A stretch of 64,000 bases of DNA from an uncultured Gammaproteobacteria bacterium. Lineage in GTDB: Bacteria > Pseudomonadota > Gammaproteobacteria > CAWCPV01. The stretch is from positions 160,001 through 224,000 of the forward strand of contig CAWCPV010000014.1 of assembly GCA_963797555.1 (NCBI GenBank), read 5' to 3'. Position 1 is the stretch's first letter, and every line of letters begins with the position of its first letter. A program made the translations under genes and the position numbers. The notes under the pieces are model-generated. The model was not told the DNA's origin. It was given only the letters and a program-made list of their open reading frames with translations, and searched no databases. Below are positions 42,649 to 56,899 of the stretch, in pieces.

Positions 42649-46263
<3,615 letters not shown>

Positions 46264-48071: not shown

Positions 48072-48728
48072 TCACCTAGTCGGGAGGGCGGTTTGCGCGT
48101 CCCCAGTGAGACGGACAAGATCCTCACGAATCTTTTCCAACTCGTCACGAAGCTTGGCCGAGGCGCCAGTGAGCACGTCTGTCCTGGTCTCGTCCGCACA
48201 GCGTTTCAGTTCCCCAGCGATCTCTTTGAGCGTCTGGCTTATCTTGCGTGCCTCGACCCATGCCCTTTCAATCCCCCGCTCAATGAACTCTCGAAACAGC
48301 ACCAGCTCGTCATCATTGAGCTGGAGAAGCTGCTCCGTATGCTGGCCGGCAGCGTCACGGGGTTGCACCTCGAACCCCTCGAACCAGAGGTGCGAGGCCA
48401 TCACATGATGGCACGGATTGGGAATGAATATGCCCCGCTCGCCCTCTACTTTGCTGGGCCAATAGTCCGTCTTGCGGGAGTTGCAGTTGCCGCAAGCGTA
48501 GAAAAGGTTGGAGTAATTCGTCGTTAACTCGGGGAACTTCGCCGTTGGCTTGTAGTGGTCCACGCCAAAGGTGCCGCCGAGGCCGTCAGGAAGGCGGCAA
48601 TAGACGCACTTTCGGTCGAACTCATCGCGGAGGTACGGCTTGTATGATTTGTACGACCTGTACTTCTTCGGGTTCAGCCGTCTGACATGCTTCCATTTCG
48701 GATAGCGAAACGGCGTGGGCTGCTTCAC
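48072..48728 (-). CDS. HNH endonuclease
   Basis: YKPYLRDEFDRKCVYC..GVDHYKP..YSNLFYACGNCNSRK..PNPC. Confidence 0.9.
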   Translation of the reverse strand: MKQPTPFRYPKWKHVRRLNPKKYRSYKSYKPYLRDEFDRKCVYCRLPDGLGGTFGVDHYKPTAKFPELTTNYSNLFYACGNCNSRKTDYWPSKVEGERGIFIPNPCHHVMASHLWFEGFEVQPRDAAGQHTEQLLQLNDDELVLFREFIERGIERAWVEARKISQTLKEIAGELKRCADETRTDVLTGASAKLRDELEKIREDLVRLTGDAQTALPTR

Positions 48729-49234
48729 TTAAGGTCTAGCTCGTCCCTGACCTTCTGGTGCCGCTTGGCTGCCTGGTCGAGCCGTTCAGCGACCTCACCC
48801 AGGGCGGTCCATTGGTCCTCGGTCACTGGCGGCAACAATTTCCGAAGTCGCTCGCTCAAAATCGCCAGCCGCGCCTCATGCTCGGTGGATGCTCCCTGCA
48901 CGTACATCCTCGCCAGCAGCCGCACTCGCGCAGTGGCGCACCGTTCGGCTTCGTTATCCCCGAGTGGCTCTCGTACCTCATCCGCTGGCTGTTGCGGCGA
49001 GGACGTTAACGCTCCCTCGAACTCTGCTTCGACAGATGTTGTCTCAATGCGGATGGAAGACAATCGACGCAATACGTCCAGAAAGTCGGCGACACGCGTT
49101 GAAGTGCGTTCCTGTGCCAGATCCGCACTCGGTTGTCTCGTTTCGCCGTCGCTCCCCTTGAAGGCGTAGAACAGCGTCTGGTCGGGTTCCAAAGAGTTTG
49201 GCTGCCAACTGTAGGCTAGGGTGTAGGAGGCCAT
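48725..49234 (-). CDS. Hypothetical protein
   Basis: Coupled to both neighbours (7-nt gap, 4-nt overlap); helical C-terminus. Confidence 0.7.
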   Translation of the reverse strand: MASYTLAYSWQPNSLEPDQTLFYAFKGSDGETRQPSADLAQERTSTRVADFLDVLRRLSSIRIETTSVEAEFEGALTSSPQQPADEVREPLGDNEAERCATARVRLLARMYVQGASTEHEARLAILSERLRKLLPPVTEDQWTALGEVAERLDQAAKRHQKVRDELDLK

Positions 49235-49241
49235 CTCTGCT

Positions 49242-49985
49242 CTACCGCTTCTTCATGGCTTTGCCCAGGTATGCCAGCGCTTTGTCGCCAATGGCCCAAC
49301 GGAACAACTTGAAATTCTGCGCGTTAAAGGCGACGAGAAAGTTCTCGAGTTCCTTAACAGCTACTTCCTCCCGATAGAAATCGAAGTCAAGGATATAGGA
49401 CCGGTTATCTTCGAGCCCATCCTCAAGACCGTGCCGGAAGTTGTACTGACCGTCAGTGGTCGCCCCGCTGATGTTCTGCCAATATTTCGCCGGGTTTCCC
49501 AACACGTTGTCCGTGAGAGGTTTGATGATGTCGTCCCGCAACCAGCCGGATGGGTCACCCTTGACGGGAATGACATTTACATACCGAAGCCCAACTCGCG
49601 TGAAAAAGTCGGAATCAATAATTTCAGCAGCCTGCTGCACCACCCACGCAAGACGCTTCAAGAAATCCTCGAAGTTCTCGTAGGCCTGTGTCTCCAGCGC
49701 GAACGCCGACGACCGGAGAGACACCGTCCAATCCCGCTTCAGCGACCGAAAAATGTACCGAGCTTCGGAATCGCGGCCCCCGGAGGGATGGAGACTGATG
49801 TCCGCAGCGCGCTCGTAGTGAGGGTATAACTTCCGCAGTGCCTTCTGGAAGGCAGGCGGGCATTCCTGTTCAAGTTCAAGTAGGGTGGGAAACCGCAGTT
49901 CACAAACGGTAAGGCGAATGAAGTTGCGTTCAAACTCCACGCGCTCGACATCGGGCACATTCAGATATCCGTCAGGTCGAGTCAC
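49242..49985 (-). CDS. TIGR04255-family protein
   Basis: VCELRFP..YIFRS..WTVSL..LETQAYENFEDF..TRVGLRYVNVI..YILDFDFY..FRWAI. Confidence 0.85.
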   Translation of the reverse strand: MTRPDGYLNVPDVERVEFERNFIRLTVCELRFPTLLELEQECPPAFQKALRKLYPHYERAADISLHPSGGRDSEARYIFRSLKRDWTVSLRSSAFALETQAYENFEDFLKRLAWVVQQAAEIIDSDFFTRVGLRYVNVIPVKGDPSGWLRDDIIKPLTDNVLGNPAKYWQNISGATTDGQYNFRHGLEDGLEDNRSYILDFDFYREEVAVKELENFLVAFNAQNFKLFRWAIGDKALAYLGKAMKKR

Positions 49986-51419: not shown

Positions 51420-52139
51420 GTGACCGCGACCATGCTCGATGAGTACAAGGAGCGCCTTCTGGCCAAGCTGGAGGCGGCCGCTGAGGCCGGTCTCACCCTG
51501 AGCGGGCTGGGTATCAAGGGGGCCGCCAAGACCGGCAAGCTCTTGAGGCAAGCGCTCGGCGAGCTGCAGCGTGAGGGTCGGGTCGGCAACCTCGGGCTCC
51601 TCACACAGCCACGGTACGTGCTGCAGCGCTTCTACCGGCCCTTGGACCTCGCTTACGAGCACGTGCAGGCGAAGGCCGTTCCGGGCAAGCCGCATCTCTA
51701 TACCAGGAGTGAGCTGGAGAAGGGGCTGAAGGGGCCGATGAAGGGAAAACTGGACGAGGCCATGGACCTTCTGGTGAAGGAAAGGGCACTGTTGCGTCTG
51801 AAACGAGGTAACGTGAGCCTCTATCTCCATGCTGCGTCGTTGGCGGGCCTGGTGCCCGCATCCGTGCGGCCTGTCGGGCCAGGCATAGACCGCGATCGGC
51901 TGCGCGAGGCTTACCGCCAAGCGGTGCGGGCCTCAGGCTTTTCCGACGTGCTGGTCGAGGAGGTGCAGCGGCGTCTGGACAGCTCCCTCGAGGATCTGAA
52001 GGCGCTGTTGATCGCAGAATGCCGCGCCGGGCGAGCGGTACCGAGCCTGGGGGATTGGTCGCTGTCCTCGGAGGCGGCGCGGACCGCGGCCATCGATATC
52101 AACGGCCGGCCGCACCTGCGCATCCGCCTCCTGGACTGA
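51420..52139 (+). CDS. Hypothetical protein, probable tandem winged-helix
   Basis: Repeated helix-helix-hairpin-like segments (ALGELQREGRV; AMDLLVKERALLRL); RBS ggagg; 3 nt before the ATPase. Confidence 0.7.
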   Translation: MTATMLDEYKERLLAKLEAAAEAGLTLSGLGIKGAAKTGKLLRQALGELQREGRVGNLGLLTQPRYVLQRFYRPLDLAYEHVQAKAVPGKPHLYTRSELEKGLKGPMKGKLDEAMDLLVKERALLRLKRGNVSLYLHAASLAGLVPASVRPVGPGIDRDRLREAYRQAVRASGFSDVLVEEVQRRLDSSLEDLKALLIAECRAGRAVPSLGDWSLSSEAARTAAIDINGRPHLRIRLLD

Positions 52140-52142
52140 AAC

Positions 52143-54212
52143 ATGTCAACGGCGCACGGCGCTCCGCTGCTGAATCCGTTCGACGAAGACATCGTCTACG
52201 AGCCGCGCTGCATCGAGCCGCCGGTTCCTGGCCTGAACGATGCCCCGTTCGGCGCCGTACTGGAGGAGCTTGCCCGCCTCGACGGTGAGCCGGTCTACCG
52301 CGCCGCCAAGGCCAGTCACTCGCTGCTGGTCACCTCGCCGCAGGCGGGCTACGGCAAGTCGCACCTGATAGGGCGTCTGTTCCAAGCGCTGACGGGCCGG
52401 GCCACCTGCGTCTATGTGCGCCCCTTCGAAGACCCTGCCAGTTGCTGGAAGTCCATTTTGGAGCGGCTGGTCCATGAGCTGGATTACACCGAGCGCGGAG
52501 CAGGACAGCCGGAGCCGCGGCACGAGATCACCCAACTGGATGCTTTGGCCCATGGCGTGCTGTCCCATCTGGCGGCCGACCTGTTGGCAAGCGGTGTCCT
52601 GCGCAGTCGGCGCCAGGAGTCTGCTGAGATCGTACGGATGCTGCGGGAACGGCCCCTGGAGAAATACACCCCGACCCTGCTGTCGGGCTGGACGCGCCAA
52701 CTGCAGGCGCTGTTCCGTCGGCCCGAGTTCGCGCCGGTTGTCGTCAGGCGGATGAGGGCTCTCGGCGTGGAACTTCAGGCGGCGCCGGCCAACTGGCTGC
52801 GCGTCCTGTTCAGCTACTTCCAGTGCGGCGACGAGCTGCTGCGCGAGGGGTGTCTCGATTGGCTGATGGGCGACAGCATCGACGAAGCGCTTTCGGACCG
52901 GATCGGCCTCACCGCGAGGGACCTGCCCAAGGCGGAGCTATCGGCAAGCGAAGCCAACGAGCTGTGCAAAAATCGCATCCTCGACTTGTGCCGGCTGGCC
53001 GGCTTCTACCGGCCCTTCCTGTTCTGTTTCGACCAGACCGAGAATTACGGGAAAGACCCGGCGCTCGCGCGCGCCCTTGGGGCGGTCACCCAGGTGGTTA
53101 CCGACGAGGCTCGCAATCAGCTCACCTTGATCACGGCCAACCTGGACTCTTGGGAGCAGCGCATCCGCCCTCATTGGGAGGAGGCGCAGCTCCATCGCCT
53201 GGGACGAGTCGCGCACCAACTGCAGGGTCTGACCTCGGGGCAAGGTGAGCACTTGGTGCGCCAGCGCCTGCAGGCGTGGCAGATCCCCCCGGAGCGGATT
53301 CTCGTCTTTCTCGAGAGCGGCCGGCGCCTGGGATCGATGTTCTCCGACGCGCCGCAGATGGGTGTGCGCTCTTTCCTGCAGCGATGCTACCAAGAGTGGC
53401 AGGAGTTCCAGCGGCTGCCCGCCGTAACGCCGGCGTCGCTTGCGGAGCTGTTCAAGCAATATTGTGACGAGGTAGCGAGCCAGCCGGGGCGCTTGGTGTT
53501 CGACCGGGATGCTCTGTTCTGGCTGGTGACGGAAGTGGCACGGGGGCTTCCCGGCGTGGAGGTGGACCGGGTGCAGGGACGCAGCGGCCATGCCGTTCCC
53601 AGGTGGTCCCACGAGGGCCGTCAGATCCTGTTCGACTTCGAGGGCGGCTCCCACTGGAGGCGCTGGCAGTCCATCGCCCGACGCACCGGCGAATACTGCA
53701 GCAAGCATCCGGGGAGCAAAGTGGTCTACTTTCGGACGCCGGAACTCCGGTCTATCCCCGGCCGCTGGCAGGTCGCGCCTGAGGTCGAGGACGCCAAGCG
53801 GCGCCACCTCCACATCGAGACGCTAGACCTGAGCCGGGTCACCGAGCTGTACGCCGCTCGCGAGCTGTACGCGGACGCGATCCAGGGTGACATCAGCTTC
53901 TGCGCCGAGGCGGTATTGGGGTTCCTGCGGGAACGGCTGCAGCCGTGGTGGGAGCGCGTGTTGCGAGGGCTGCCCCAGGAGTCCGGGGTGCCCGCGGTCA
54001 CACCGGCCGCAGACTCCGGTGAGCTGCTCGGTGCGGTGCGAGCTGCCGTGCAGCGCGGCAAATTCCTCAGCCTGGACGAGCTTCTGACCAGCCTGCCCTC
54101 CGAAACGAGCCGCGAGGCCGTTCTGGAGGCGTGCGGGAGAGTGCGGGAGATCCGCGTCCACGCCAGTCCCACCATGACGGTCCTGCAGTGGCAGTCCGGC
54201 GCATCACCGTGA
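52143..54212 (+). CDS. P-loop (AAA+/STAND-like) ATPase
   Basis: Walker A PQAGYGKSH; Walker B FLFCFDQTE. Confidence 0.85.
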   Translation: MSTAHGAPLLNPFDEDIVYEPRCIEPPVPGLNDAPFGAVLEELARLDGEPVYRAAKASHSLLVTSPQAGYGKSHLIGRLFQALTGRATCVYVRPFEDPASCWKSILERLVHELDYTERGAGQPEPRHEITQLDALAHGVLSHLAADLLASGVLRSRRQESAEIVRMLRERPLEKYTPTLLSGWTRQLQALFRRPEFAPVVVRRMRALGVELQAAPANWLRVLFSYFQCGDELLREGCLDWLMGDSIDEALSDRIGLTARDLPKAELSASEANELCKNRILDLCRLAGFYRPFLFCFDQTENYGKDPALARALGAVTQVVTDEARNQLTLITANLDSWEQRIRPHWEEAQLHRLGRVAHQLQGLTSGQGEHLVRQRLQAWQIPPERILVFLESGRRLGSMFSDAPQMGVRSFLQRCYQEWQEFQRLPAVTPASLAELFKQYCDEVASQPGRLVFDRDALFWLVTEVARGLPGVEVDRVQGRSGHAVPRWSHEGRQILFDFEGGSHWRRWQSIARRTGEYCSKHPGSKVVYFRTPELRSIPGRWQVAPEVEDAKRRHLHIETLDLSRVTELYAARELYADAIQGDISFCAEAVLGFLRERLQPWWERVLRGLPQESGVPAVTPAADSGELLGAVRAAVQRGKFLSLDELLTSLPSETSREAVLEACGRVREIRVHASPTMTVLQWQSGASP

Positions 54213-56053
54213 GTCAGCTCAAATGCGCTTGCCTGGACGAGGGCTGGCGCACGGCCTGGCTGCGAGGCGAGACCCCGCCTACCCGGTCCTTTGCTGCGAA
54301 CGGGGCTCGGGCGGTGCACGGGACGCTGTTCCACAAGCTGGCGGAGGACTTCGCCGCCTGGCTGAGCGGCGGACGATCGGTGCGTCGCGCCGCCAAGCTC
54401 GAGAGTGCGGAGGATCTGTGGGGTGAGCTGTACGAGAGATTCGCCGCCGCGCGGCTGGGCAGCCTGGCCGGGTCGGGAAAATTGGAGTCGGCACACCACC
54501 TCAGCCGCTGCCTCAAGGTATTCTGCCAGAGGCTGGAGGAGTTGCGCCGCCGCACCCAGGGCTTCGTCACCTGGCAGGACGTCTACCTGGACAAGGAATA
54601 TCCGCTGCACGACGTGCCGATCGCCGTGGGCGCCGGAGACACGCTGCGGGTCTCGGGCCAAGTCGACGCCCTGCGAAGCCATCCGACGTTCGGTGTAGAG
54701 GTGGTGGACTACAAGCTCTCCCACGGGGCCCAGGCCAAGCACGACCTGGTGCAGCTCGCGGTCTACGCTCGGCTGCTGGCCGTCACCAAACCGGGGCTGC
54801 GCTTCACCGGCAGCCTGGAGTATTACGAGCCTGAGCTGCGAGAGCTTCAGGTGGCGGCCGGGGATCTGGAGGGGATCTTCGACGAGCTGGTGCGACCGCT
54901 GCTGCCGGAGCTGGCGGGCGCGGGCGGACGCGGCCGTCCACGTCCGAAAGCGGCGCCGAGCACTTCGCCTCCGGGCGAGACGCAGCCGCCAATGCCGCCG
55001 CCGGACCTTTCGGGAGCCATCCGCGAGTGCTTCGCCTCCTTCAACCTCCAAGTGGAGGTGCTGGACCGGTGCGAGGCGCCGCAGCTCGTGCGTTATCGGG
55101 TACTGCCCGCCGCCGGCGTCAAGGTCGTGTCGCTGGTGAACCGCGCCCAGGACCTGCAGGTGGCCCTGTCGCTGGTACAGCCGCCGATGATCGAGCCAGC
55201 TCAGGGGTACGTGAGCATCAACGTCCCCAGGGAGCGGCCGGACACAGTTCTGTGGCGCAACGTGATGCATCGCGCGGCAGACCGGCTGGCCGCCAGCGCG
55301 GTGGCCTTCCCGGTCGGCGTCGGGGCGGACGGCAACGTCCTGGTCGCGGACTTCGCGGACCCGAACATGGCCCATGCCCTGGTCGGCGGCGCCTCGGGCA
55401 GCGGCAAGAGCGAGCTGCTCAAATCCGTCGCCGCCGCTCTGATGGTGCGGAACAGTCCCGAGACCCTGCGCGTCACCATCATCGACCCGAAGGCCCTCAC
55501 CTTCGGTGCCCTGTCGGGCGCGCCGCACCTGAGCGGCCCGGGGATCACGGACCGCAAGGAGGCGGTCGCCTGCCTGGAGCGACTGGTAGGCGACATGGAC
55601 CGGCGGTACCGGCAGCTCGCCGCAGAGGGCTACGAGAGCCTGAGTCAGCGCCATGCCGCAGGACGGCGCGGCATGCCCTTCCACGTCGTGATCTTCGACG
55701 AGTTCGCGGACCTCGTCCTGGCCGGCAGGAAGGAGAAACAAACCTTCGAGGCCCTCGTGGCGCGGCTGGCAGGCAAGGGCCGCGCAGCGGGGATACATCT
55801 GGTGTTGGCGACCCAACGGCCAGACCGTAACATCGTCACCGGGCCCATCAAGGCGAACCTCCCGCTCAAGGTCTGTCTGCGCGTGACCAGCGCCACGAAC
55901 TCGCAGATTGTCCTGGACCAGGGCGGCGCAGAAGCCCTCCTGGGCCGGGGTGACCTGCTCTGCGATCGCGGCCAGGGCGTAGAGCGGGCGCAAGCCCCCC
56001 TGGTGACGCCGGAAGACCTCGGCGGGCTCGCGCGAAAGGGCGTGCTGGGTTGA
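54188..56053 (+). CDS. PD-(D/E)XK (RecB/Cas4-like) nuclease fused to an FtsK/SpoIIIE ATPase
   Basis: GTLFH..SGQVDAL..VVDYK..QLAVY; GGASGSGKS, IIDPK, IFDEFADL, GRAAGIHLVLATQRP, GAEALLGRGDLL. Confidence 0.92.
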   Translation: MAVRRITVSQLKCACLDEGWRTAWLRGETPPTRSFAANGARAVHGTLFHKLAEDFAAWLSGGRSVRRAAKLESAEDLWGELYERFAAARLGSLAGSGKLESAHHLSRCLKVFCQRLEELRRRTQGFVTWQDVYLDKEYPLHDVPIAVGAGDTLRVSGQVDALRSHPTFGVEVVDYKLSHGAQAKHDLVQLAVYARLLAVTKPGLRFTGSLEYYEPELRELQVAAGDLEGIFDELVRPLLPELAGAGGRGRPRPKAAPSTSPPGETQPPMPPPDLSGAIRECFASFNLQVEVLDRCEAPQLVRYRVLPAAGVKVVSLVNRAQDLQVALSLVQPPMIEPAQGYVSINVPRERPDTVLWRNVMHRAADRLAASAVAFPVGVGADGNVLVADFADPNMAHALVGGASGSGKSELLKSVAAALMVRNSPETLRVTIIDPKALTFGALSGAPHLSGPGITDRKEAVACLERLVGDMDRRYRQLAAEGYESLSQRHAAGRRGMPFHVVIFDEFADLVLAGRKEKQTFEALVARLAGKGRAAGIHLVLATQRPDRNIVTGPIKANLPLKVCLRVTSATNSQIVLDQGGAEALLGRGDLLCDRGQGVERAQAPLVTPEDLGGLARKGVLG

Positions 56054-56182
56054 GTGACCCGTCGCGGGCGTGCCCGACGCGGGAGTACTGAGCCATCGCG
56101 GCGGCCGGACCCGGCAGTCGTGCGGCCCCGTGCTGCGACAGGTCGCGGAGTTCGACCGATACGGGGGAGCAGAGGTCCGCTC

Positions 56183-56899
56183 ATGAGTCGTCGTAGAGCG
56201 GAGAGCGGCATGAAGGCGTTTCTCGGCGTTGTGGTAGCCATAACTGCATCGCTGTGGTGGCGGATTACACGCAGCGTCGATGCGTCAATCGGGCGTATGC
56301 GCGAGCCCGAAGCGCGGCTACGGCAAGCGGTCGAGGAGCCAGGCGGGGACTTCGCCGCGCTGATCGAGGCTACGGATGCTTGGGCTCGCGCCCACGGGTT
56401 GACGAAGGACGAGGTGCTGGAGTTCTTCAGCCTGTCGGCGGGGAATCCCCTCCGGGTCTGTCCCTGGCGCGATGACGCTGCCGGCACGTTCCTCGCCCTC
56501 TACTACGCCAGGATCCCGCTCAGAGGGCGGACGGTTCAACGGTCGCTGCGGGACCTGGTGACGCTTTACGGGGAAGAGCGGAGCGTTACGACCTCCGACA
56601 GCAGGGATGGCGTTCTCCTGCCGCGGGCTGAGGGCGCTTACGCCCAGGCATTTCCAGGCGCCGGCCTCGATGCGCTTTATGCCGAGCACCAGACGGCGTG
56701 CCGGCTCCTGGAGGAGAAGACGGACGCTCGTGCCCAGCCCCTACGAGCCGACACGCGCGACATCATGCTGCGGGCCATTCGGCGTCAGTTGGACCATGTC
56801 ACGTCCTTGCCGCTCTGGTATCTACGGGGGGCATACTGGTACCTGGTGCGGCGCCGGCTGTTGGCCGGAAAGCCTCTGAGATCGCAGGGTCTCCTATGA
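56183..56899 (+). CDS. Hypothetical protein with N-terminal TM
   Basis: Long ORF with a hydrophobic N-terminus; no motif recognised. Confidence 0.55.
   Translation: MSRRRAESGMKAFLGVVVAITASLWWRITRSVDASIGRMREPEARLRQAVEEPGGDFAALIEATDAWARAHGLTKDEVLEFFSLSAGNPLRVCPWRDDAAGTFLALYYARIPLRGRTVQRSLRDLVTLYGEERSVTTSDSRDGVLLPRAEGAYAQAFPGAGLDALYAEHQTACRLLEEKTDARAQPLRADTRDIMLRAIRRQLDHVTSLPLWYLRGAYWYLVRRRLLAGKPLRSQGLL

What the first reader, a model, noticed from the sequence alone, without database searches (positions are those of the whole stretch)
51420..56053. Candidate undescribed three-gene defence/DNA-processing system: wHTH + P-loop ATPase + nuclease-FtsK fusion
Seen: three tightly coupled genes (3-nt gap, then an overlap). 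The last fuses an intact RecB/Cas4-like PD-(D/E)XK nuclease (H..D..DYK..QxxxY) through a Pro-rich linker to an FtsK motor. It has no membrane N-terminus and no gamma domain, so it is not the cell-division FtsK. The locus sits next to an hsdR remnant and an HNH operon. Known: HerA/FtsK motors paired with nucleases recur in antiphage systems. Inference: a soluble translocase-nuclease controlled by an ATPase and a DNA-binding subunit. I cannot match this gene set to a named system.
Basis: partly seen in the sequence, partly recalled or inferred. Interest (0 to 1): 0.8.

Follow-up and report, generated by a model that had tools for sequence, protein, structure and literature searches.

The report
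FtsK-nuclease three-gene anti-invader cassette
Three tightly linked genes (a DNA-binding protein, a switch-like ATPase, and a nuclease fused to an FtsK DNA pump) form a cassette that recurs in many bacterial phyla and fits a class of anti-phage/anti-plasmid systems predicted by computer in 2024 but never tested at the bench.

Summary
Genes A (51420-52139), B (52143-54212) and C (54131/54188-56053) are co-directional, with a 3-nt gap and then an overlap. C carries an intact RecB/Cas4-type PD-(D/E)XK nuclease, a Pro-rich linker and an FtsK alpha+beta motor. It has no membrane segment and no gamma domain.

The A-B-C order is conserved. It appears in 10 of 10 loci with enough upstream DNA and in 44 of 80 further loci. 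Three more loci have B fused to C. These loci span Thermodesulfobacteriota, Verrucomicrobiota, Pseudomonadota, Nitrospirota, Myxococcota and Spirochaetota.

"Undescribed" does not hold. The domain set matches the "Orc/CDC6-type HerA/FtsK capture systems" described in silico by Rakesh, Aravind and Krishnan (NAR 2024, PMC10853773, sections 22 and 26 read). A and B have no PADLOC 2.0 hit, and four literature searches found no experimental test.

The neighbouring hsdR remnant was not confirmed. The HNH gene is PtuB-like.

Verdict: a new member of a predicted, unvalidated defence class; moderate interest.

The parts
51420..52139 (+). Gene A, 239 aa. It has two tandem homologous ~68-aa modules (residues 5-72 and 73-140) and a conserved C-terminal module (155-239, invariant G211-D212-W213). 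It is the presumed DNA-binding/specificity subunit.
   Evidence: Translation. No Pfam, PADLOC or NCBIfam family. 26 homologues. Alignment A4. hhalign of module 1 against module 2: probability 95.9%, E 5e-9 over 66 columns. The C-terminal module recurs behind KfrA_N and H-NS type N-termini in other proteins. Weak alignment of module 2 to the GntR-type wHTH of YvoA, E 0.77, not significant.
52143..54212 (+). Gene B, 689 aa P-loop ATPase. Walker A is at residues 66-73 (nt 52338-52361). Walker B-like FDQTE is at residues 296-300 (nt 53028-53042). A conserved non-catalytic middle region spans ~431-610. The C-terminal domain is 611-689 (nt 53973-54209).
   Evidence: Searches give the invariants G69 G71 K72 S73 and D297 Q298. 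Sub-threshold AAA_16 in 25 of 35 and AAA_22 in 19 of 35 family members. No PDB sequence match. 427 homologues, none with a precomputed Pfam domain among the 120 listed. 1518 cluster representatives at E<=1e-3.
54188..56053 (+). Gene C, 621 aa from the preferred GTG start (the longest ORF starts at 54131). It is a nuclease-linker-FtsK alpha/beta fusion.
   Evidence: The family profile hits the solved FtsK motor 2iuu at E 6.9e-83.
54305..54841 (+). PD-(D/E)XK (RecB/Cas4-type, PDDEXK_1) nuclease domain of C with an intact catalytic set.
   Evidence: Pfam. H68, D179, D193, Y194, K195, Q208 and Y212 are invariant in 31 of 31 sequences. There is no conserved four-cysteine set (C32 and C34 vary).
54914..55006 (+). 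Pro-rich linker of variable length.
   Evidence: Alignment columns 300-400 of A3 are gap-rich and unconserved.
55013..55822 (+). FtsK alpha domain (55013-55228) and FtsK/SpoIIIE motor (55283-55822). Walker A is GSGKSE and Walker B is DE.
   Evidence: Best PADLOC match is the C-terminal motor of SspH (E 5.7e-61).
48072..48728 (-). Neighbouring PtuB-like HNH nuclease gene in a low-GC stretch. It is not part of the cassette.
   Evidence: It has no counterpart next to the cassette in 92 other loci.

Best explanation
The three genes are one stand-alone, horizontally mobile anti-invader (phage/plasmid restriction) cassette. It belongs to the 'Orc/CDC6-type HerA/FtsK capture' class.

Proposed mechanism; every step is inferred and none is shown biochemically:
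1. A binds DNA through its two variable tandem modules. It docks to the machine through its constant C-terminal module.
2. B is an ATP-dependent switch or loader. Its C-terminal domain (residues 611-689) holds C.
3. C assembles as an FtsK-type ring that pumps double-stranded DNA. This feeds its N-terminal RecB/Cas4-type nuclease, which cuts or degrades the captured DNA.

No modification gene is linked to the cassette. Self/non-self discrimination is therefore more likely to rest on what A and B recognise than on an epigenetic mark. That could be a sequence, a free DNA end, or a replication, transfer or packaging intermediate.
For: Anatomy is shown directly. The nuclease and both P-loops are intact and invariant. 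The motor is of the cellular FtsK alpha+beta type, with no gamma domain.

The genes behave as a functional unit. A-B-C order holds in 10 of 10 loci with enough upstream sequence among 15 loci found with C. Among 80 loci found with B, 44 have A+B+C as separate genes and 3 have B-C fusions. Fusion proteins also appear among cluster representatives: B+PDDEXK_1+FtsK_alpha+FtsK in P0310 and P0355.

The motor is exchangeable. The same nuclease is joined to a HerA/TrwB-type motor in L075, and B is fused to a HerA-type motor in P0350. This is the 'capture' pattern of PMC10853773 section 22.

B's C-terminal domain tracks a separate C gene. Of 71 scorable loci: full-length B with separate C, 48; full-length B without C, 1; short B without C, 13; short B fused to C, 3; contig ends, 6. 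The short-B/no-C state needs at least 6 changes on well-supported branches of a quick tree.

The cassette is accessory and horizontally spread. No full-length B was found in 40 class relatives. C homologues are 51-60% identical across phyla. IS elements flank some loci.

There is some defence context. A PtuB-like HNH gene lies 2.7 kb upstream in a low-GC stretch. GmrSD_N and AAA_15/DUF3696 genes lie beside the Desulfocicer locus. The motor's best PADLOC hit is SspH, a proven defence protein (PMC8092258, passages read).

No linked modification module was seen. No methylase family appeared among the flank families shown for 105 flanking ORFs (only 25 of 115 families were listed). No dndC was found in the genome (the genome is 84.6% complete).
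Against: No phenotype exists for any member. Defence is inferred from architecture and from one comparative-genomics paper.

A and B match nothing in PADLOC 2.0.

The flanks of the cassette in other genomes are mostly housekeeping genes (transporters, ClpB, Tex, glycogen phosphorylase, FdhD). Only a minority of flanking ORFs hit defence models, and some of those hits are generic ATPases. Enrichment in defence islands is therefore not shown.

B's assignment to the Orc/CDC6 clade, its inactive-REase insert and A's wHTH folds could not be tested, because the structure tools were off. hhalign of A against three DUF4007 (SspB-like) proteins was negative, as was hhalign of B's middle region against C's nuclease.

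B's Walker B reads D-Q rather than D-E, and Walker A and Walker B lie 225 residues apart. B is therefore an atypical AAA+ protein at best.

Thirteen loci carry A plus a short B with no nuclease-motor gene nearby. A and B can evidently persist without C.

Gene C is the only FtsK_SpoIIIE match above cutoff in this 84.6%-complete assembly.
Confidence: 0.6

Rival explanations
1. The cassette is a DNA repair or recombination machine. It would be a bacterial analogue of HerA-NurA or AddAB, in which a ring translocase plus a RecB-type nuclease resects double-strand breaks, loaded by B and A.
For: RecB/Cas4-type nucleases typically process DNA ends, and ring translocase plus nuclease is the HerA-NurA logic (established knowledge, recalled). 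The flanks are mostly housekeeping genes. No modification gene is linked.
Against: The distribution is patchy and cross-phylum, and no full-length B was found in 40 class relatives. The DNA-binding subunit is fast-evolving and modular. The motor is exchangeable. IS elements and defence genes flank some loci. Core repair systems are usually vertically inherited.
Confidence: 0.12
2. The cassette is a module of a mobile element: a plasmid/ICE segregation or transfer function, or a domesticated Tn7-like ATPase-plus-nuclease transposition module. On this reading it serves the element's own propagation rather than host defence.
For: FtsK/TraB-type pumps drive conjugative DNA transfer, and NCBIfam shows weak TraB and EccC similarity. 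PMC10853773 calls these 'mobile gene neighborhoods' and links Orc/CDC6 ATPases to Tn7/Mu. The cassette moves horizontally.
Against: No integrase, relaxase, transposase or T4SS gene, tRNA or terminal repeat lies next to it in the window. Nothing beyond the three genes is conserved. It is essentially absent from plasmids (a truncated remnant in 2 of 72,556 records), from phages (0 of 50,697) and from IMG/VR (0).
Confidence: 0.12
3. The cassette is an abortive-infection variant of the defence reading. On sensing infection, B releases C onto the host chromosome as well, and the cell dies or arrests rather than selectively degrading invader DNA.
For: There is no linked modification or other obvious self-protection. 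Unrestrained SspFGH damages host DNA and is toxic (PMC8092258, passages read). B resembles switch-type STAND/KAP/BrxC-like ATPases by language-model features of a homologue.
Against: Nothing in the sequence distinguishes this from direct restriction. A dedicated DNA-binding specificity subunit argues for targeted action.
Confidence: 0.1

Closest known systems
Orc/CDC6-type 'HerA/FtsK capture' systems (Rakesh, Aravind and Krishnan, NAR 2024, PMC10853773; in silico only)
   Same: The domain list is the same: a P-loop ATPase with a long non-catalytic region and a C-terminal domain (B); an active REase-fold nuclease fused to FtsK-alpha plus FtsK (C); and an extra fast-evolving small DNA-binding protein (A). 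The domains are combined as separate or fused polypeptides, and the motor is swapped between FtsK and HerA types.
   Different: The paper's fold assignments (Orc/CDC6 clade, inactive REase insert, DndG-like wHTH) were not reproducible with the sequence tools available here. Its supplementary gene lists were closed, so I cannot say whether this exact family is listed. The paper names two REase families without saying in the text whether one is PDDEXK_1.
DndFGH / SspFGH phosphorothioate-associated restriction modules
   Same: They are three-gene modules. The largest protein ends in an FtsK-type motor next to a REase domain. There is also a Walker A protein and, in DndG, a multi-wHTH protein. C's motor hits SspH models at E 5.7e-61. 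SspFGH restricts phage and damages DNA (PMC8092258).
   Different: The match covers only SspH's last ~350 of 1766 model positions. C lacks the large N-terminal regions of DndH/SspH. A and B hit no DndF/G or SspF/G model. No dndC was found in the genome.
Cellular FtsK/SpoIIIE DNA translocase
   Same: C has alpha and beta motor domains with all ATPase motifs. The family profile against solved FtsK gives E 6.9e-83.
   Different: C has no membrane anchor, no long linker and no gamma (KOPS-reading) domain, and it is fused to a nuclease. Class relatives carry a separate canonical ~780-aa FtsK (19 of 20).
HerA-nuclease defence and repair pairs (HerA-NurA, Sir2-HerA, DUF4297-HerA)
   Same: A ring translocase of the HerA/FtsK superfamily is coupled to a nuclease or effector. 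Some relatives of this cassette use a HerA-type motor.
   Different: Here the motor and nuclease are in one chain, the motor is FtsK-type, and two further subunits are obligatory partners. PADLOC HerA hits are weak (E 6.8e-10 or worse).
Cas4 / RecB / AddB nuclease family
   Same: C matches PDDEXK_1 and has the H...D...D-Y-K...Q-x-x-x-Y motif set.
   Different: Cas4 models score only E 0.002-0.045. There is no conserved four-cysteine iron-sulfur set and no CRISPR context.

Membership tests
Orc/CDC6-type HerA/FtsK capture system (PMC10853773) | An active REase-fold nuclease | tested here: met
   PDDEXK_1 at 44.4 bits against a cutoff of 22. Catalytic residues are invariant in 31 of 31 sequences.
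Orc/CDC6-type HerA/FtsK capture system (PMC10853773) | A HerA/FtsK ATPase, in one subset preceded by the FtsK-alpha domain | tested here: met
   FtsK_alpha E 1.2e-8 and FtsK_SpoIIIE E 2e-36. PDB FtsK E 6.9e-83.
Orc/CDC6-type HerA/FtsK capture system (PMC10853773) | [quoted passage not shown] | tested here: inconclusive
B has invariant Walker A and D297. There are only sub-threshold AAA_16 (25 of 35) and AAA_22 (19 of 35) hits. There was no PDB hit. TIGR02928 found nothing at this locus.
Orc/CDC6-type HerA/FtsK capture system (PMC10853773) | An inactive REase domain inserted between the ATPase core and a C-terminal wHTH | not testable with these tools
   Residues 431-610 are conserved but have no invariant acidic/lysine set, which is compatible with an inactive domain. 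hhalign against C's nuclease gave probability 0.7%. No fold prediction was available.
Orc/CDC6-type HerA/FtsK capture system (PMC10853773) | [quoted passage not shown] | tested here: inconclusive
   A has two homologous tandem modules (hhalign 95.9%) plus a third module. It is the least conserved of the three proteins, with 21-68% identity to P0001 across alignment A4. It shows weak resemblance to a GntR wHTH (E 0.77). hhalign against 3 DUF4007 proteins was negative.
Orc/CDC6-type HerA/FtsK capture system (PMC10853773) | Domains recombined as separate or fused polypeptides, with motors from different sources | tested here: met
   B-C fusions. The nuclease is joined to a HerA-type motor in L075, and B to a HerA-type motor in P0350.
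DndFGH / SspFGH | DndH/SspH-length protein (about 1560-1770 model positions in the two PADLOC SspH profiles) with N-terminal domains, plus DndF/G or SspF/G partners | tested here: not met
   Only the C-terminal motor of the SspH models is matched (positions 1412-1761 of 1766). A and B hit no PADLOC model.
DndFGH / SspFGH | Association with a phosphorothioate modification module | tested here: not met
   No dndC (TIGR03183) match in the 84.6%-complete genome. None among the flank families shown. ssp genes were not searched separately.
Cell-division FtsK | N-terminal membrane domain and C-terminal gamma domain | tested here: not met
   The N-terminus is a nuclease domain. There is no FtsK_gamma match in the genome.
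Cas4 | Score above the family cutoff, a four-cysteine cluster, and a CRISPR context | tested here: not met
   TIGR00372 gave 15.9 bits against a cutoff of 65. The cysteines are not conserved.

The most novel reading that the evidence does not exclude
The cassette is a modification-independent restriction machine with a modular docking logic. A's constant C-terminal module plugs interchangeable DNA-reading heads (tandem modules here; KfrA-like or H-NS-like heads elsewhere) into the complex. B's last ~80 residues are the dedicated socket for the nuclease-pump: the socket is lost whenever the pump is fused or absent. The FtsK ring threads onto invader DNA, for example at free ends or transfer intermediates, and shreds it. 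The recurrent A + short-B two-gene forms would then be stand-alone sensors that serve other effectors.
Probability: 0.3. Interest if true: 0.65.

Novelty: new member of a known kind. Interest (0 to 1): 0.45.

Why it matters
FtsK pumps are known from chromosome segregation and DNA transfer. Their use as the engine of a nuclease in immunity has experimental support only in the very large DndH/SspH proteins. This compact three-gene version occurs in at least 152 species-level genomes. It is small enough for heterologous tests and for structural work.

It could show how a ring translocase is aimed at foreign DNA without an epigenetic mark. The correlated loss of B's C-terminal domain and of gene C gives a concrete, testable interaction map. 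The finding does not open a new category, because the architecture was predicted in 2024.

Tried and rejected

The protein Atlas failed once and then reported that it does not hold B's exact sequence. As that tool suggested, I used a stored homologue, P0131. It gave only feature neighbours carrying AAA_22, AAA_16, KAP_NTPase and BrxC_BrxD, and no structure search.

Profile searches of solved structures found nothing significant for B (best E 0.04, an unrelated protein) or for A (best E 0.35).

The following hhalign comparisons were all negative:
- A module 3 against modules 1 and 2
- B's C-terminal domain against each A module
- B's middle region against C's nuclease
- A against three DUF4007 proteins. 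That reference alignment had only 3 sequences, so this is weak evidence.

TIGR02928 (Orc1/Cdc6) gave only weak Walker-region hits elsewhere in the genome and returned no archaeal sequences to build a reference profile from.

The ORF directly after C (56054-56899) has no family, is unrelated to B, and is not found next to the cassette elsewhere (0 hits in 92 loci). I rejected it as a fourth gene. The three minus-strand ORFs of the HNH stretch also have no counterpart in those 92 loci.

No tRNA, no convincing flanking repeats and no promoter or terminator signal above shuffles mark the island's borders.

Expression: no RNA holder was listed.

The only plasmid hit is a 34%-coverage fragment between IS6 copies in Methylosinus trichosporium OB3b pOB3b1, present in two records of the same plasmid. 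It is a remnant.

Host placement is tentative. The neighbouring PFOR gene is 73-75% identical to Competibacteraceae/Contendobacter genes. A single, transfer-prone gene is a weak basis.

Literature: claims that no experimental test is in print rest on searches of the open library only. Supplementary files of PMC10853773 were closed and not seen. They may list this exact family and the fusion and short-B variants that I report.
Full report
WHAT IS THERE. The window is GC-rich (0.58-0.70 per 2 kb). Frame-specific GC3 marks three consecutive plus-strand genes: A 51420-52139 (239 aa), B 52143-54212 (689 aa) and C, whose longest ORF is 54131-56053 (640 aa). A and B are 3 nt apart. B's stop is at 54210-54212. 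Homologues of C begin MAxxxIxVxQLK, which corresponds to the GTG at 54188 (VAVRRITVSQLK). C therefore most likely starts there and overlaps B by 25 nt. A GTG at 54209 would give a GTGA overlap instead. Upstream lie glycolysis and pyruvate genes (DeoC-type aldolase, PFK, PPDK, an oxidoreductase, PFOR, a DHODH-like gene). Downstream lie a GDPD phosphodiesterase and an amine oxidase. Between PFOR/DHODH and gene A sits a 4-kb stretch of lower GC (0.575) with few convincing genes.

THE THREE PROTEINS. C has PDDEXK_1 (residues 59-237), FtsK_alpha (295-366) and FtsK_SpoIIIE (385-564). In an alignment of 31 family members from several phyla, the nuclease residues H68, D179, D193-Y194-K195 and Q208/Y212 are invariant. 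So are the motor's Walker A (G420-S427), Walker B (D523-E524) and T561-Q562. The linker between the nuclease and the alpha domain is Pro-rich and varies in length. A profile of the family hits solved FtsK motors at E 6.9e-83. There is no gamma domain, and the N-terminus is the nuclease, not a membrane anchor. Cas4 models score far below threshold, and the cysteines are not conserved.

B has an invariant Walker A (GxGKS, 69-73) and an invariant D297-Q298 in a Walker B-like strand 225 residues later. It also has a conserved but non-catalytic region at about 431-610 and an ~80-residue C-terminal domain. Its only family signals are sub-threshold AAA_16 (25 of 35 members) and AAA_22 (19 of 35).

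A has no family match. Its residues 5-72 and 73-140 are homologous tandem modules (hhalign 95.9%, E 5e-9). Its C-terminal module (155-239, invariant GDW) is the best conserved part. That module also occurs behind other DNA-binding heads, KfrA_N and H-NS, in other proteins.

IS IT A UNIT? Yes. A search with C found 306 relatives. Of the 120 listed, 114 carry all three precomputed Pfam domains. Fifteen loci were found in species-representative genomes. All 10 with enough upstream DNA have A-B-C in order. Four are cut by contig ends. In one (L014) A was not detected by tblastn.

A search with a B profile found 152 species, of which 80 loci were kept. HMM scans of the six-frame ORFs of those 80 loci gave 44 with A, B and C (nuclease plus motor) as separate adjacent genes and 3 with B fused to C. 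The other 33 are variants or contig-limited.

Cluster representatives include natural fusions:
- B + PDDEXK_1 + FtsK_alpha + FtsK (P0310, P0355)
- B + FtsK without a nuclease (P0317, P0346, P0368)
- B + a HerA/TrwB-type motor (P0350)

In Myxococcota locus L075 the third gene joins the same nuclease to a HerA-type motor. Nothing else is conserved beside the cassette. The window's neighbouring ORFs have no counterparts in 92 related loci.

A NEW CORRELATION. Of 71 loci with a single-ORF B (9 of the 80 were dropped because B was split or cut), the counts are:
- full-length B with a separate C-type gene: 48
- full-length B without C: 1 (L098)
- short B (ending at profile position ~600-636) with no C within at least 2.5 kb: 13
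- short B fused to C: 3
- undecidable because of contig ends: 6

On a quick maximum-likelihood tree of B, the short-B/no-C state needs 8 changes, at least 6 of them on well-supported branches. The tree was the quick one; the careful search did not finish. The recurrent truncation at one domain boundary suggests that B's C-terminal domain is the part that works with a separate C. A single deletion removing both B's 3' end and gene C could also produce each case, so these forms may be decayed. Two of the short-B loci are followed by housekeeping genes (L058, L062). One is followed by rhodanese/YceI and ADP-ribosylglycohydrolase genes (L048). One is followed by GmrSD_N and AAA_15/DUF3696 genes (L049, Desulfocicer vacuolatum DSM 3385).

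ACCESSORY AND MOBILE, BUT NOT ON KNOWN ELEMENTS. B was not found full-length in 40 class-level relatives. Only two partial matches of 140 residues or fewer turned up, one of them in G039, which is flagged unpublished. Identity of C across phyla is 51-60%. Phage records gave 0 matches, IMG/VR gave 0, and plasmids gave only a truncated remnant between IS6 copies. In the window there is no integrase, tRNA or clear repeat pair.

The flanks of 15 related loci (105 ORFs) are mostly housekeeping, with a few IS3/IS66 transposases and some hits to defence models (mad2/3/8, DolB, PDC-M37B, mREase_IV, AriA). Some of those hits may be generic ATPases. Defence-island enrichment is therefore suggestive at most. 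In the window itself, the HNH ORF 48072-48728(-) is PtuB-like (E 3.3e-21). The reported hsdR remnant was not found: there is no TIGR00348 match on contig C14.

COMPARISON WITH THE LITERATURE. PADLOC matched only C, to the C-terminal motor of SspH (E 5.7e-61), to mad8 and to HerA. SspFGH is an experimentally shown phage-restriction module whose SspH ends in an FtsK-like region (PMC8092258, passages read).

The decisive paper is Rakesh, Aravind and Krishnan 2024 (PMC10853773). I read the abstract, outline, passages, and sections 22 and 26 in full. It reports that DndH-type HerA/FtsK domains led to 'mobile gene neighborhoods' with these core domains: an Orc/CDC6 ATPase, an inactive REase always inserted before the C-terminal wHTH of that ATPase, an active REase of one of two families, a HerA/FtsK domain, and a wHTH. 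These domains are combined in single or multiple polypeptides. A subset carries an extra gene for a fast-evolving 2-4 wHTH protein, and one set has the FtsK-alpha domain 'captured' from cellular FtsK. The authors propose that the ORC-like ATPase localises the apparatus and the pump intercepts invader DNA for the nuclease.

The same group restates this in 2026 (PMC12839542, passages read). A 2025 preprint on modular discovery of defence systems contains none of the terms FtsK, translocase, Cas4 or PDDEXK. I found no experimental study. The gene set is therefore described in silico, unnamed and untested.

WHAT COULD NOT BE TESTED. Fold prediction and complex prediction were off. The fold-level claims that define the class therefore rest on the paper, not on my calls. 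These are B as an ORC/Cdc6 protein, its inactive REase insert, and A as a multi-wHTH protein. My sequence-profile attempts were negative or weak.

MECHANISM. Shown: intact catalytic motifs, gene coupling, fusions, motor swapping and accessory distribution. Inferred: A reads DNA, B is an ATP switch or loader whose C-terminal domain holds C, and C's ring pumps DNA into its own nuclease. Discrimination probably does not rely on modification, because no modification gene is linked. Rivals are a repair machine, a mobile-element function, and an abortive-infection mode.

VERDICT. This is a new member of a predicted class. Interest is moderate.

Noticed in passing
whole genome G000; gene C at window 55283-55822: Gene C is the only FtsK_SpoIIIE match above cutoff in this 84.6%-complete assembly, and no FtsK_gamma domain was found. 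By contrast, 19 of 20 class relatives carry a canonical ~780-aa FtsK. This is probably an assembly gap, but it is worth checking.
   Followed up: partly
window 48072-49985 (- strand): A low-GC stretch holds three minus-strand ORFs: a 247-aa and a 169-aa ORF with no family, then a PtuB-like HNH nuclease (E 3.3e-21). There is no PtuA-like partner. It may be an incomplete or variant Septu-like module.
   Followed up: partly
L048, L049, L058, L061, L062, L064, L066, L067, L071, L076, L077, L078, L087, L090: These loci hold two-gene forms: A plus a B that ends at the domain boundary (~position 600-636), with no nuclease-motor gene found downstream. Thirteen were scored. The fourteenth, L062, has B detected in two pieces. 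The state arose several times on the B tree. They could be functional sensors or decayed systems.
   Followed up: partly
P0264, P0265, P0267, P0269 (homologues of A residues ~146-239): The constant C-terminal module of A (60-73% identical) is attached to different N-terminal heads, including KfrA_N (PF11740) and H-NS (PF00816) domains.
   Followed up: partly
L075 8929-11250 (L094 3689-6076 probably alike): In Myxococcota locus L075 the third gene keeps the PDDEXK_1 nuclease but carries a HerA/TrwB-type motor instead of FtsK alpha/beta. L094 has the nuclease in a 795-aa ORF without an FtsK-type motor match. Its motor was not scanned.
   Followed up: partly
L024 (Methylosinus trichosporium OB3b plasmid pOB3b1, 279038-279760): A fragment equivalent to B residues 392-627 (30.5% identity) lies between two IS6 transposase genes next to an rtcR/rtcB locus. 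It is a remnant.
   Followed up: yes
window 56054-56899 (+): An ORF starts one base after C's stop. Its later part has a hydrophobic helix after an internal Met. It has no family match and no GC3 coding signal, and it is not conserved beside the cassette elsewhere.
   Followed up: yes
window 42649-46263: The PFOR gene is 73-75% identical to genes of Candidatus Contendobacter/Competibacteraceae MAGs. This hints at a gammaproteobacterial host, although the genome tool lists only class-level relatives.
   Followed up: no
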